The notes under the pieces are model-generated. The model made no database searches and was not told where the DNA came from. It was given only the letters and a program-made list of their open reading frames with translations. A stretch of DNA of 64,000 bases from assembly GCF_009914755.1 (NCBI RefSeq), contig NC_060926.1; one strand, written 5' to 3'. The stretch is from the human T2T-CHM13v2.0 reference genome, Homo sapiens. This document shows, piece after piece, positions 1,231 through 16,779 of this stretch. The position numbers and the translations under genes were made by a program. Position 1 is the stretch's first letter; each line of letters begins with the position of its first letter.

Positions 1231-2525
1231 AATCCCATTTACAATAGCTACAAAAAAAGCACTTTAGGATTAAATGTAAACAAGGAGGTGAAGGATCTGT
1301 ACATTAAGAACTACAAAACATGATGAAAAAAATTGAAAGAGACACAAATAAATGTGAAGATATCCCATGTTCATGGACTGGAAGAATTAATATTGTTAAA
1401 ATGCCCATGCTACCCAAAGCAATCTACAGATTCAATGCAGTCCCTATCAAAACTCCAATGACATTGCTCACAAAAATAGAAAAAATAAAATAAAATTTGT
1501 ACCAAATCAGAAAAGACTCCTAATAGTCAAAGCAATCTTGAGCAATAAGAACAAAGCTGGAGACATCACACTACCTGATTCCAAAATCTAATGCAAAGCT
1601 GTAACCATCAAAACAGCATGGTACTGGCATAAACAGAAACAGGTGGACCAGTGGAAGAATAGCGAGCCCAGAAATAAATCCACGCATTTCCAGTCGATTG
1701 TTTTTTGACACAGTTGCCAAGATCACACTATGGGGAAAGGATAATCTCCTCAATAAGTGATGTTGGGGAAAACTGTCCACCTGCAGAAGAATGAAATTAG
1801 ACCCTCATCTCATTCCATATAAAAAAATCAACTCAAAATGTATTAAAGACTTAAATGTAAGACCTGAAACTATAAAACTAGTAGGAGAAAACATAAGGCG
1901 AAAGCTCCATGATATTGTTCCAAAAACAATGATTTTTTTGGATATGACTCAAGAGCACAGGCAACAAAAGAAAAAACAGACAAACGGGATTGCACTAAAC
2001 TAAAAAGCCTCTGCACAGCAATGGAAACAACAGAGTAAAATGACAAACTAACCTACGGAATGGGAGAAAATATTTGTAAACTGTGCATCTGTTAAGGGGT
2101 TAATATCCAAAATAAACAGTAAATATAAACAAATTAATAGCAAGAAAACAAATAACCTGGTTTTAAAATGGACAAAGGACCCAAATAGGCATTTTTCAAA
2201 AGAAGACATACAAATGGCCAATAGATACGTGAAAAAAAAATGCTTGACATCATTAATCATCAGGGAAATGCAAATTAAAACCACAATAAGATATCATCTC
2301 ACACCTGTTAGAATGGCTATGATCAAAATGAAAAGAGATAACAAGTGTCACAGGAAATGTGGAGAAAAGGGAACCATCGTACACTGTTGGTGGGAATGTA
2401 AATCAGTACAGCCATTGTAGAAAACAGTATGGAAATTCCTCAGAAAATTAAGAAGAAAACTACTATATGATACAGTGATCCCACTTCTGGGTATGTCTCC
2501 AAAGGATATGAAATCAGTATGTTGA

Positions 2526-2829
<304 letters not shown>

Positions 2830-3082
2830 TGTTGAAAATATATCTACACTCCCACATTCCCTGCAGCACTATTCACAATAACCAAGATATGGAATCAACC
2901 TAAGTGTCTAACAACAGATGAATAGATAAAGAAAATGTGGTATCGAGACACAATGGAGTACTCTTCAGCCTTCAACATGAAGGAGATCCTGTCATTTTCA
3001 ACAGCATGGAGGAATCTGGAAGACACTATGATATGTCAAATAAACCAGGCACAGAAAGACGAATACCACGTGATCTCACTTC

Positions 3083-14509: not shown

Positions 14510-14700
14510 TGGTATGTTATTCTTCTTGCTCCTCTTCTTGGGTGTGGGGATTTTCATCTCTCTTCCTGGAGACAGGGAGGCCCTGAGAGGTCTCGGTGGT
14601 GACGGGTTGCAGGCAAGAGGAGTGAAGCAAACCCTGCTGGTACTGCAGAAGCCACACGGAGTGAAGAGACATGTCCTTGACGTCATAGAGTGGAGTGCGC

Positions 14701-14959
14701 TTTCTTTCTTTTGTTCTTTCGTTCTTTCATTCTTTCATTCTTTCTCTTTCTTTCTCTCTTTCTCTCTGTCTCTTTCTTTCTCTTTCTTTCTCTTTCTCTT
14801 TCTTTCTTTTTCTTTCTTTCTTTCCCTCCCTGCCTTCCTGCCTTCTTTTTTCTTTCTTTCTTTCTTTCTTCTCTTTCTCTCGCTCTGTTCCTTTCTTTTT
14901 TCCCTCCCTGCCTTCCTGCTTTCTTTCTTTCTTTCTTTTTCTTTCTTTCTTTCTTTCTT
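14701..14959. repeat. (CTTT)n/(CT)n polypyrimidine microsatellite
   Basis: ~260 bp of almost pure C/T; likely a decayed poly-A tail on the minus strand. Confidence 0.95.
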
Positions 14960-15008
14960 GTTAAATCCATATCACAAAGCATTTTCACAGATAGCTTGTT
15001 TCTAGTTG
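14960..15008 (-). repeat. Alpha-satellite-like fragment (~49 bp)
   Basis: Reverse complement CAACTAGAAACAAGCTATCTGTGAAAATGCTTTGTGATATGGATTTAAC resembles monomeric alphoid AAACTAGAAAGAAGCTATCTGTGAAACTGCTTTGTGATGTGTGGATT (compared from memory). Confidence 0.65.
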
Positions 15009-15678
15009 TTTTTTTTTTCACTTTAAGTTCTGGGATAGGTGTGAAGAACATGCAGGTTTGTTACATAGGTCTACACGTGCCACGGTGGTTTGCTGCACCT
15101 GTCAACCCATCATCTAGATTTTCAGCCCCGCATGCTTTAGGTATTTGTCCTAATGCTCTCCCTTCCCTTCCCCCTGACCTCCTGACAGGCCCTGGTAAGT
15201 GTTGTTCCCCTCCCTGTGACCATGTGCTTTCACTGTTCACCTCCCACTTATGAGTGAGAACATGTGGTGTTCTGTTCACCATTCACTCAGAGAACATGTT
15301 GGTTTTCTGTTCGTGTGTTAGTTTGCTGAGAATTGTGGCTTCCGGCTTCATCCATGTCCCTGCAAAGGACATTAACTCATTCTTTTTTATGGTTGCATAG
15401 TATTCCATGGTGTCTATGTGCCACATTTTCTTTATCCAGTCTATCATTGATGGGCATTTGGGTTGATTCCAAGTCTTTGCTATTGTAAATAGTGCTGCAG
15501 TAAACATACGTGTGCACATGTCTTTACAGTAGAATGATTTATAATCCTTTGGGTATATACCCAGTAATGGGATTGGTGGGTCAAACAGTATTTCTGGTTC
15601 TAGATCCCTGAGGAATCCCCACACTGTCTTCCACAATGGTTGAACTAATTTACACTCCCACCAACAGTGTCAAAGCAT
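15009..15678 (-). mobile_element. 5'-truncated L1PA (approx. L1PA7/8 age) 3' end
   Basis: T10 then cactttaagttctggg...catgcaggtttgttacatagg; ORF2 C-terminal peptide (CTRMFTAALFTIAKTWNQPKCPSMIDWIKKMW) on the minus strand. Confidence 0.93.
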
Positions 15679-16779
15679 GGAGCACACGTTTGTTCATTCA
15701 TTGACCGTTCCCTGTGTGTGGCTTTCATAGTATTCATTTGGGATCCTGACGTGAAATGGCCTAACCAGGGTGGAGTGGCAGTTGTGTTCCCAGCACAGGA
15801 CTGGCCCAGCCCCCGAGCCCTGTAGCTTCCCTAACACCATTCACTCAGGCTCCGTCAGCCTCTCCCGGGTTCCTGGGCTTCTCTGCTTGTTTTCATGAGG
15901 TTTGCGCCTTTCTCCTATGCCAATTTACAGTACACCCTTTAGCAGCTGCAGCCACATTTGGCTTTACAACCCCTGGATGCCCTCATGTCCTGCCCAGACC
16001 CTTCTTTTGAACTCCACCTGACAACTTGACACCCCCCTTTCCCCAACACTCTTCATCACCCTGCCAGCAGCTGCTCCTCCTGCATTTCTCATCCCCCCAC
16101 CTCAGAGCTGCCTGAGCCGGGGCTCCCCCGAGCTTGTTCCCCTCCCCTCCTCGGTGAAATCGTGAAGCTGGCTGAGGCCCCTCCCCTCACATAGTGACCT
16201 CGGCAGCCTCCCAGTCCATCTGCTTCCAAGATTGGCCCCACCACACCTGCATCTTCATCTTGGTGTCCTAGTGATCCTAGGACATGCCAGCCTTGGGATT
16301 GAAAACAGCAGCCTCTCTCCCCAGGACAAGGCCCCGTCACAGCTGTCCCTGTGCCTGTCATCATGGCCCCCTGAAATAAAGTCTGCCTTACCATCTTCAC
16401 AAAAGGAGAAAGAAAACACAACCCTCATGCTATGGTTCCCCGCCTTACCATCCTTAATGACTCCCATAGCTTCCGGGATACATTTTAAAGCCATATGATG
16501 GCACCAGGGGCCTCTTAGCCCCCTCCTTCCTGCCTCTCTCCCATGGGGGTCTTACACTCCAGTTGTACCGAGCTACTGAACAGCGTTTCCCATCATTTTC
16601 CATCCTTCCAGCCTCAGTTCCCCCTCCTCCAGGAAGCCCTCCCTGACTTCCTCGGCTGGGGTAGGAACATTCACACTAGCTGCTTATTATCCTCACAGCA
16701 TTTTTCCTGAGGTTTAGCTTACAAGAAGTCTTTCTGTTGAATAAATGAAGAAATCAGCAACAAGGGTAATTGTTGCTGA

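What the first reader, a model, noticed from the sequence alone, without database searches (positions are those of the whole stretch)
14691..15691. L1PA insertion apparently carrying a centromeric alpha-satellite 3' transduction into an LRRFIP1 intron
Seen, reading the minus strand: L1PA 3' end (...CCCAGAACTTAAAGTG, no AATAAA), then A10 (15009-15018), then 49 bp of non-L1 sequence (14960-15008, CAACTAGAAACAAGCTATCTGTGAAAATGCTTTGTGATATGGATTTAAC), then a ~260-bp A/GAAA-rich tail (14701-14959). A candidate CpG-decayed TSD lies outside the whole unit: TGGAGTGCGC-TTT at 14691 and TGGAGCACACGTTT at 15678. Established: L1 + A-run + unique flank + second tail inside one TSD is the architecture of an L1 3' transduction. 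Old monomeric alpha-satellite layers contain L1PA insertions. From memory, the 49-mer closely resembles monomeric alphoid DNA (AAACTAGAAAGAAGCTATCTGTGAAACTGCTTTGTGATGTGTGGATT). Inference: the source L1 sat in pericentromeric alpha satellite, was transcribed in the germline and exported a centromeric tag to a gene-rich arm. The tag could be used to trace the source element and its sibling insertions. Caveats: no AATAAA in the tag, and the TSD is imperfect.
Basis: partly seen in the sequence, partly recalled or inferred. Interest (0 to 1): 0.8.

Follow-up and report, generated by a model that had tools for sequence, protein, structure and literature searches.

The report
Old L1 carrying an alpha-satellite tag
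A dead, 5'-truncated L1 retrotransposon in an LRRFIP1 intron carries 49 bases of alpha-satellite DNA between its own end and its tail, which shows that jumping genes can carry satellite fragments out to chromosome arms; the mechanism is well known and nothing suggests a function here.

Summary
On the minus strand lie these parts:
- a 5'-truncated L1 (15677-15019), encoding ORF2p residues 1142-1265 plus the 3' UTR
- an A10 run (15018-15009)
- a 49-mer (15008-14960)
- a 259-bp (GAAA)n-rich tail (14959-14701)
- a CpG-decayed 13-14-bp target-site duplication around all of it

The 49-mer is alpha satellite. A profile built here from 281 monomers hits the 64-kb window once, at 15008-14963 (nodes 3-50 of 167, E = 4e-11). 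Genome matches of 98-100% lie in 171-172-bp arrays.

The best reading is an ancient L1 3' transduction, at about 0.66. The alpha piece starts at an A-run of the monomer where I found four independent Alu or L1 insertions sharing one duplication (AAAACTAGAAACAAG). A second, independent composite on chr5 has a different L1 subfamily and 153 bp of alpha starting at the same site, inside a 19-bp duplication.

Not supported:
- No source or sibling was found.
- The tag's private variant is unique in the assembly.
- The tag has no poly(A) signal.
- The monomer type is pericentromeric or interstitial, not shown to be core-centromeric.

No outgroup genome could be checked. The kind is known, the cargo is unusual, and interest is modest.

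The parts
15678..15691 (-). 5' copy of the target-site duplication, AAACGTGTGCTCCA, directly abutting the first L1 base
   Evidence: Its 10-bp core matches the 3' copy at 7 of 10 positions. The 3 differences are CpG-type transitions.
15019..15677 (-). 5'-truncated L1 (L1PA type). It holds the last ~134 codons of ORF2 and the 3' UTR, and ends ...CTTAAAGTG.
   Evidence: 15669-15286 matches ORF2p residues 1142-1265, E = 1.2e-63; 39 of 39 other scored hits are L1 3' ends at 86-91% identity; the 3' UTR holds the extra segment also seen in L005 and L008; 43 of 620 columns (6.9%) differ from the majority of 12 similar copies; the full-length frame holds 3 stop codons.
15266..15300 (-). Diverged tandem duplication of about 35 bp inside the L1, private to this copy. 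Coordinates are approximate.
   Evidence: an insertion relative to L002a, L002b, L015 and L004; repeat pairs D7, D13 and D17 at spacings of 34-39.
15009..15018 (-). A10 run between the L1 end and the alpha piece. I read it as the remnant of the source element's poly(A) tail, possibly merged with the alpha A-run.
   Evidence: Other copies of this L1 variant carry their poly(A) directly after AAAGTG.
14960..15008 (-). Alpha-satellite fragment, about 0.29 monomer, nodes 3-50 of a 167-node monomer profile, in the same orientation as the L1
   Evidence: E = 4.2e-11, 38.1 bits, aligned 15008-14963, the only hit in 64 kb; 98% over 45 bp at chr5:24008421, 100% over 40 bp at chr17:28116692, 90-92% over 49-57 bp at chr10:39.08, chr16:38.35 and chr17:22.90/28.11 Mb; those loci are 172-bp tandem arrays.
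14701..14959 (-). Degenerate A-rich (GAAA)n tail with internal 39- and 78-bp duplications. I read it as the poly(A) tail of the retrotransposed RNA, later remodelled as a microsatellite.
   Evidence: period 4, 65.8 copies; repeat pairs D10, D19 and D20 at spacing 78. L004 shows another L1 tail of the same subfamily turning into GAAA repeats.
14691..14703 (-). 3' copy of the target-site duplication, AAAGCGCACTCCA, directly after the tail

Best explanation
This is one ancient L1 retrotransposition event that carried a 3' transduction of alpha satellite.

Proposed sequence of events (inferred):
1. A source L1 of an older L1PA subfamily had inserted, in the alpha-forward orientation, at the A-run that begins the monomer (..ATAAAAACTAGAAACAAG..).
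2. Transcription ran through its weak 3' end for about 49 nt into the flanking monomer.
3. That RNA was tailed.
4. It was copied by target-primed reverse transcription into the antisense strand of an LRRFIP1 intron, at a TTT/G nick.
5. The copy was 5'-truncated to 659 bp and made a 13-14-bp target-site duplication.
6. Later the tail grew into a (GAAA)n microsatellite and the CpGs of the duplication decayed.

Shown here: the identity of each part, their order and orientation, the duplication around the whole unit, and the insertion hot spot in the monomer.

Inferred: the source element, the read-through, and the place of RNA 3'-end formation.

I see no sign of present function.
For: 1. The foreign piece is alpha satellite.

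2. It lies between the L1's A-run and a second A-rich tail, in the same orientation, inside one duplication that abuts both ends. The chance rate is 1.3e-4 per register, or 1.3% with liberal jitter.

3. It starts at profile node 3, at the A-run. I found four independent retroelement insertions at that site with the same duplication:
- Alu at chr3:81.0 Mb, AAAAACTAGAAACAAG
- Alu in a solitary monomer at chr5:161.692 Mb, AAAAATTAGAAACAAG
- L1 at chrX:57.46 Mb, AAAACTA[C/G]AAACAAG on both sides
- Alu at chr10:39.08 Mb
The first two were found without regard to the junction. Of the 5 insertions found that way, 2 are at this site and 3 elsewhere: nodes 61-76, 65-81 and about 140. An L1 lodged there gives a read-through that begins exactly as the window's tag does.

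4. There is an independent second case at chr5:161.566-161.570 Mb. An L1 of about 3.0 kb from a different subfamily is followed by alpha nodes 4-156 (E = 2.3e-46) and A29. All of it lies inside AAGATTAGTATATTGTTGC / AAGATTCCTGTATTGTTGC.

5. L1 elements do sit in such arrays.
Against: 1. No source and no sibling was found.
- Junction patterns hit only the window and the chr5 pair, besides 3 unrelated places.
- BLAST with 106-bp and 193-bp junction queries gave no other composite of this L1 subfamily. Only 40 of 940 and 40 of 3147 candidates were scored.
- The 24-mer with the tag's private 2-bp deletion is unique in the assembly at up to 2 mismatches.

2. The 49-mer holds no AATAAA, ATTAAA or other common variant hexamer (read; the list of variants is recalled). 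A signal in the alpha A-run would lie about 49 nt upstream of the tail, which is far.

3. A duplication around the whole unit would also survive a later insertion into the L1's tail, so it does not by itself prove co-insertion.

4. The duplication is imperfect: 3 transitions and 1 indel.

5. No outgroup genome was available to show the empty site.
Confidence: 0.66

Rival explanations
1. Chimeric retrocopy by template switching. L1 reverse transcriptase began on a polyadenylated alpha-satellite RNA and copied about 49 nt. At the A-run of the monomer it jumped to the poly(A) tail of an L1 RNA.
For: It gives the same order, orientation, A10 linker, single tail and single duplication. The switch point at an A-run would be favoured by microhomology. 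It needs no source L1 in alpha, which fits the failed source searches. It needs no poly(A) signal downstream of an L1.
Against: In the chimeras I recall from the literature (none read here), the 5' partner is usually a small RNA and the 3' partner an L1, Alu or mRNA. The start at the documented insertion hot spot is what read-through from a resident L1 predicts directly. The chr5 case shows L1 joined to alpha with almost no A-run between them.
Confidence: 0.12
2. Two events. An ordinary L1 insertion came first. Later a short alpha piece entered its poly(A) tail, either as a trans-mobilised alpha retrocopy or as filler DNA at a break in the tail.
For: Poly(A) tails are favoured L1 endonuclease targets (established knowledge, recalled). 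An all-A duplication would be invisible. The outer duplication would be unchanged. Solitary alpha pieces do arise without any L1, for example the sat_825 locus, which has no tail.
Against: It needs a second rare event at the same spot. A randomly truncated piece would start within +-2 nt of the hot spot in about 3% of cases (5 of 171). The orientation would have to match by chance.
Confidence: 0.12
3. The 49-mer and the CT/GA tract were already in the intron, and the L1 merely landed beside them.
For: Solitary alpha fragments exist in euchromatin (PMC7719264, passages and supplementary table read). An Alu did land in one of them.
Against: The L1's 5' flank would then repeat the start of the 49-mer. 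Instead it repeats the DNA beyond the tail. There is no alpha 5' of the L1: the profile gives one hit in 64 kb.
Confidence: 0.03

Closest known systems
L1 3' transduction (Moran 1999; Pickeral 2000; Goodier 2000; Szak 2003). I saw these only as reference-list entries, and two were not held. The T2T catalogue is in Hoyt et al., bioRxiv 10.1101/2021.07.12.451456 (passages read).
   Same: L1 3' end, remnant A-run, flanking DNA of the source in the same orientation, new tail, and one target-site duplication around all of it.
   Different: The cargo is satellite DNA, so it cannot be mapped to one source. There is no poly(A) signal in the cargo. The event is old (at least 6.9% diverged), so source and siblings are not recoverable here. 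One pipeline I read (PMC13103737 methods) discards cargo with many alignments or homology to repeats. That would hide cases like this one.
AluSx3-WaluSat transduction (Hoyt et al. preprint, passages read)
   Same: A non-LTR retroelement carried a satellite monomer to new chromosomes.
   Different: There the carrier is an Alu, the satellite is a 64-nt unit, and the copies later expanded into arrays. Here the carrier is an L1, the cargo is 0.29 alpha monomer, and nothing expanded except the tail.
Solitary euchromatic alpha repeats (Feliciello et al. 2020, PMC7719264; passages and supplementary Table 1 read)
   Same: A sub-monomer alpha piece in an intron, next to an L1PA and a simple repeat. Their sat_730 has that same description. 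Their sat_823 is the chr5 composite studied here. I matched it by its description ('Btw 2 L1PA7') and by an hg38-to-T2T offset of +528.85 kb, which one search confirmed at sat_825.
   Different: This locus is not among their repeats: LRRFIP1 has 0 occurrences in text and supplement, and no entry lies on chr2 near 237 Mb. The authors state they found no role for retrotransposons and propose extrachromosomal circles with 2-10-bp junction homologies. Here, and at sat_823, the tail and the long duplication around L1 plus alpha point to retrotransposition.
L1-mediated chimeric retrogenes by template switching (Buzdin and colleagues; recalled, not read)
   Same: Two RNA-derived parts in one orientation, one tail, one duplication.
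   Different: Here the 5' part is an L1 3' end with its A-run and the 3' part is satellite. See the first rival explanation.

Membership tests
LINE-1 (L1PA-type) insertion | Homology to L1 ORF2 and to the L1 3' UTR | tested here: met
   ORF2p residues 1142-1265, E = 1.2e-63; 39 of 39 other scored hits are L1 3' ends, 86-91% identity. Pfam gave no family for the 128-aa stretch.
LINE-1 (L1PA-type) insertion | A-rich tail and flanking target-site duplication that starts with A's | tested here: met
   The duplication is imperfect, with 3 CpG-type transitions and 1 indel. The inferred nick site TTT/G is a loose fit to the usual TTTT/A (that consensus is recalled and also quoted in PMC8934628).
Alpha satellite | Sequence homology to monomers of about 171 bp that form tandem arrays | tested here: met
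   E = 4.2e-11, nodes 3-50 of 167; 98-100% over 40-45 bp; the matched loci have periods of 170-174 bp.
Alpha satellite | Tandem organisation at this locus | tested here: not met
   Only 0.29 monomer is present, and the profile hits the 64-kb window once. It is a fragment derived from alpha satellite, not a satellite array.
Alpha satellite | Belongs to active-centromere higher-order repeats, or carries a CENP-B box | not tested
   The best hits lie in divergent monomeric arrays, including interstitial ones at chr5:24.0 Mb, which PMC7719264 Table 1 types as M1+ (sat_732/733). No comparison with higher-order-repeat monomers was run. By recall, the fragment does not cover the part of the monomer that holds the CENP-B box.
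L1 3' transduction | Non-L1 DNA directly 3' of the L1 end or A-run, in the same orientation, followed by a second A-rich tail | tested here: met
L1 3' transduction | One target-site duplication enclosing the L1, the cargo and the tail | tested here: met
   (p about 1e-4 to 1e-2). The same geometry would survive a later insertion into the tail.
L1 3' transduction | Source locus where an L1 is followed by the same flank (confirmatory) | tested here: inconclusive
   None was found. The BLAST step scored only 40 candidates per search. Exact patterns have low sensitivity at 10-20% divergence. The source may have been lost. Loci with the same kind of junction do exist (chrX L1; Alus).
L1 3' transduction | Poly(A) signal near the end of the cargo (usual, not strictly defining) | tested here: not met
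   No AATAAA, ATTAAA or other common variant is in the 49-mer (read; the variant list is recalled). This lowers confidence.
L1 3' transduction | Empty site in an outgroup that lacks L1, cargo and tail together | not testable with these tools
   No other primate genome is held.

The most novel reading that the evidence does not exclude
The A-run at the start of the monomeric alpha unit (..ATAAAAACTAGAAACAAG..) is a strong L1-endonuclease hot spot. Read-through from L1s, and perhaps Alus, lodged there may be a recurrent and overlooked route by which solitary alpha fragments reached euchromatin. If so, part of the published 'dispersed alpha repeats' are retrotransposon transductions rather than reinserted extrachromosomal circles. 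Their Table 1 lists 7 L1PA-adjacent solitary cases: sat_1, sat_685, sat_705, sat_730, sat_257, sat_607 and sat_823. That would run against the conclusion of PMC7719264.
Probability: 0.3. Interest if true: 0.55.

Novelty: new member of a known kind. Interest (0 to 1): 0.38.

Why it matters
On its own this is a fossil with no sign of function. It lies in an intron, antisense to the gene. No RefSeq functional element in the part of the hub's table that I was shown overlaps it.

Its value is as evidence. It and the chr5 composite show that retrotransposition moved alpha-satellite pieces onto chromosome arms at least twice, from two different L1 subfamilies. The one dedicated study I found states there is no indication of this. 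Transduction pipelines that discard repeat-like cargo would miss such cases.

The shared start point also reveals a precise insertion hot spot inside the alpha monomer. That bears on how L1 and Alu colonise pericentromeric arrays.

Tried and rejected
1. The chrX:57.46 Mb L1 as source of the chr5 composite. They share the junction register and L1 subfamily, at 79% over 239 bp. Rejected: the chrX copy is a 2.2-kb 5'-truncated insertion with its own duplication. The chr5 L1 reaches about 0.5 kb further 5'.

2. Window and chr5 as siblings. Rejected. The window's L1 carries an extra 3' UTR segment and ends AAAGTG+A(n). The chr5 and chrX copies lack that segment and end ..TATCATAATAATAAAATA. Identity is only 81%.

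3. The two chr5 L1+alpha copies as two insertions. I prefer a later tandem duplication of about 463 bp, running from CAGCAAAC.. in the L1 to GATTACTAT in the flank.

4. An L1 abutting alpha at chr3:81.00 Mb as a further hot-spot case. Dropped. No alpha follows its 3' side within the 5.7 kb read, and it is an older L1 at 66-70% identity. It looks like an array edge.

5. chr3:158.87 Mb, chr7:151.31 Mb and chr8:43.99 Mb pattern hits. The first is unrelated sequence. The chr8 match reads as internal alpha. The chr7 match was not inspected further.

6. Pfam on the ORF2 stretch gave no family.

7. Scanning 200 kb for two further published L1-adjacent alpha repeats was not possible.

9. Pickeral 2000 and Szak 2003 are not held.

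10. Five literature searches found no report of L1 transducing alpha satellite. The library lacks most subscription journals.
Full report
**What is there**

Read on the minus strand, the region holds, in order:
- unique intron DNA ending AAACGTGTGCTCCA (15691-15678)
- an L1 fragment (15677-15019)
- A10 (15018-15009)
- the 49-mer CAACTAGAAACAAGCTATCTGTGAAAATGCTTTGTGATATGGATTTAAC (15008-14960)
- a 259-bp A-rich tract dominated by GAAA (14959-14701)
- AAAGCGCACTCCA (14703-14691), followed by unique DNA

Tandem Repeats Finder reports the tract as 14700-14959, period 4, 65.8 copies, 74% matches.

**The L1**

- The open stretch 15669-15286 matches residues 1142-1265 of the 1275-residue human L1 ORF2 protein (8sxt_A, E = 1.2e-63). 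Pfam gave nothing for it.
- A BLAST of 14958-15150 against the window's own assembly scored 40 of 3147 candidates. The 39 hits other than the window itself are L1 3' ends at 86-91% identity, and all stop at query position 140-158. That is the L1 end plus poly(A). None runs into the 49-mer.
- The copy is dead. It is 5'-truncated to 659 bp, has 3 stops in the full-length frame, and carries a private tandem duplication of about 35 bp near 15266-15300.
- It differs from the majority state of 12 similar copies at 43 of 620 columns (6.9%). This is a lower bound, because the copies were chosen for likeness to it. I infer an age of tens of millions of years and cannot be more precise.
- Its end ...CTTAAAGTG+A(n), without AATAAA, is an ordinary variant. 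Among 11 copies of this L1 group whose ends I read, 4 end the same way, 2 end AAAGTAAAATAAAA and 2 end AAAGTAAAATTAAAA.

**The 49-mer is alpha satellite**

- A 106-bp query across the junction (40 of 940 candidates scored, 52 matches) gave two kinds of hit: L1 ends for its first half, and for the 49-mer half a set of matches in tandem arrays.
- The strongest array matches are:
  - 98% over 45 bp at chr5:24008421
  - 100% over 40 bp at chr17:28116692
  - 98% over 43 bp at chr19:30256323, chrX:61240272 and chr17:28092054
  - 90-92% over 49-57 bp at chr10:39082329, chr17:22897876, chr16:38345909 and chr17:28109070
- The matched loci are tandem arrays with periods of 170-174 bp.
- I built a profile from 281 monomers of 16 such loci (167 nodes, with node 1 at the A-run AAAAACTAGAAAC). 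It hits the 64-kb window exactly once: 15008-14963, minus strand, nodes 3-50, 38.1 bits, E = 4.2e-11.
- The monomer type is the divergent monomeric kind. The same type forms interstitial arrays at chr1:103.9, chr3:81.0, chr4:12.26 and chr5:24.0 Mb. The chr5:24.0 Mb arrays correspond to sat_732/733, typed 'M1+' in PMC7719264 (Table 1).
- That the other hits lie beside centromeres is my recollection of the assembly's layout, not a tool result.
- I did not test against higher-order-repeat monomers, so 'centromeric' should read 'pericentromeric or interstitial monomeric type'.

**The target-site duplication**

- The two 10-mers that abut the unit, GTGTGCTCCA and GCGCACTCCA, share 7 of 10 bases.
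- The three differences are transitions that all fit CpG decay from GCGCGCTCCA.
- Over all position pairs of this window at the same spacing, the rate of at least 7 identities with only transitions otherwise is 1.3e-4 per register. With 13 relative offsets and +-3 bases of jitter it is 1.3%.
- The duplication starts with AAA, and the implied nick is TTT/G.
- This geometry argues against the tract and 49-mer having been there first. In that case the L1's 5' flank should repeat the start of the 49-mer, and it does not. No alpha lies 5' of the L1.

**A hot spot in the monomer**

The alpha piece begins at the monomer's A-run. Retroelements have entered alpha at exactly that place, with the same duplication, at least four times:

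| Place | Element | Duplication | How found |
|---|---|---|---|
| chr3:81.0 Mb | Alu | AAAAACTAGAAACAAG | without regard to the junction |
| chr5:161,691,937-161,692,055 (solitary monomer) | Alu | AAAAATTAGAAACAAG | without regard to the junction |
| chrX:57.46 Mb | 2.2-kb L1 | AAAACTA[C/G]AAACAAG on both sides, array continuing in phase | through junction likeness (biased sample) |
| chr10:39.08 Mb | Alu | same site | through junction likeness (biased sample) |

Of the 5 insertions found without that bias, 2 are at this site. The other 3 are at nodes 61-76, nodes 65-81 and about node 140.

An L1 lodged at this site in the alpha-forward orientation has, directly after its tail, the string with which the window's tag begins.

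**A second, independent composite**

- At chr5:161.566-161.570 Mb, an L1 of about 3.0 kb is followed, after ..AATAATAAAATA, by alpha nodes 4-156 (E = 2.3e-46) and A29.
- The whole lies between AAGATTAGTATATTGTTGC and AAGATTCCTGTATTGTTGC.
- A second partial copy follows: 270 bp of L1 end, alpha nodes 8-38 and 89-155, then A15. It is 95% like the first over 122 bp. I read it as a later tandem duplication of about 463 bp.
- An Alu with its own duplication sits in the L1's 5' tip.
- This L1 belongs to another subfamily than the window's. It lacks the extra 3' UTR segment, has a different end, and is 81% identical. So the two events are independent.
- It is sat_823 of PMC7719264 ('Btw 2 L1PA7'; hg38 chr5:161040056-161040240). 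The offset of +528.85 kb predicted the place of their sat_825 correctly.
- The chrX L1 shares its subfamily and junction register (79% over 239 bp). It cannot be its source, because it is shorter at the 5' end.

**Mechanism**

The best reading is one retrotransposition of an L1 RNA that read through into 49 nt of flanking alpha (confidence 0.66).

Against it:
- There is no source or sibling. Patterns hit only the window and the chr5 pair besides 3 unrelated places. BLAST found none.
- The 24-mer holding the tag's private 2-bp deletion is unique at up to 2 mismatches.
- There is no poly(A) signal in the tag.

Pattern searches are insensitive at 10-20% divergence, and BLAST scored only 40 candidates per search, so absence is weak evidence.

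Rivals:
- Template switching from a polyadenylated alpha RNA to an L1 RNA (0.12).
- A later insertion of an alpha retrocopy or filler into the L1's tail (0.12). The outer duplication does not exclude this.
- Pre-existing local sequence (0.03).

The first two would need the start at the hot spot to arise from microhomology or by chance (about 3%).

**Literature**

- L1 3' transduction is textbook. I saw Moran 1999, Goodier 2000, Pickeral 2000 and Szak 2003 only as references.
- Hoyt et al. (preprint, passages read) list 183 high-confidence L1 3' events in this assembly. They also describe an Alu that carried the WaluSat satellite.
- Feliciello et al. 2020 (PMC7719264; passages and supplementary Table 1 read) studied the solitary euchromatic alpha repeats. 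They note that many are adjacent to L1PA elements, state that they found no indication that retrotransposons spread them, and propose extrachromosomal circles. This locus is not in their list.
- Five full-text searches found no report of L1 transducing alpha satellite. Subscription journals are mostly not covered.
- Not every solitary alpha piece is a transduction. The sat_825 locus has no tail.

**Verdict**

The tracing idea failed. This is a new example of a known mechanism with an unusual cargo. It shows no function and is of modest interest. A wider hypothesis about the dispersal of alpha fragments remains open.

Noticed in passing
L002 1-2150 with L051 (G000 chr5:161,565,700-161,569,500): This is an independent L1+alpha composite, the published sat_823. 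A ~3.0-kb L1 is followed by alpha nodes 4-156 and A29, inside a 19-bp target-site duplication. About 463 bp spanning the L1 end, the alpha piece and the tail was later duplicated in tandem. The second copy lacks alpha nodes 39-88. An Alu sits in the L1's 5' tip.
   Followed up: yes
L027 2169-2491; L064 2056-2362; L015 about 1582 with L050 about 9282; L006 1551-1865: Four independent Alu or L1 insertions entered the alpha monomer at the same A-run, each with the duplication AAAACTAGAAACAAG. This looks like a precise L1-endonuclease hot spot in monomeric alpha satellite.
   Followed up: partly
window 15266-15300 (approximate): The window's L1 holds a diverged tandem duplication of about 35 bp near the ORF2 end. 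The other L1 copies aligned do not have it.
   Followed up: partly
G000 chr1:103.897-103.911 Mb, chr3:81.000-81.021 Mb, chr4:12.257-12.269 Mb, chr5:23.993-24.013 Mb: Interstitial arrays of the same monomeric alpha type lie far from the junction-matched pericentromeric hits. In this assembly the chr5 array spans about 19 kb. The hg38 coordinates given for sat_732/733 span 6.6 kb.
   Followed up: no
L050 6545-6634 (chrX:57,457,5xx): An (AAGA)n tract of about 85 bp sits exactly at the A-run boundary between two alpha monomers. It resembles the GAAA-type tail of the window's insertion. It may be a tail remnant or an expansion of the A-run.
   Followed up: no
L034 about 1147 with L065 (chr3:80.997-81.000 Mb): The chr3 interstitial alpha array ends at ..AAAACTAGAAACAA, directly against the 5'-truncated end of an older L1 (66-70% identical to L1PA copies). 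No alpha follows on the other side within the 5.7 kb read.
   Followed up: partly
window 2381-2516 and 2861-3057 (+): Two older L1-like fragments elsewhere in the window are 73-75% identical to the L1 studied here.
   Followed up: no
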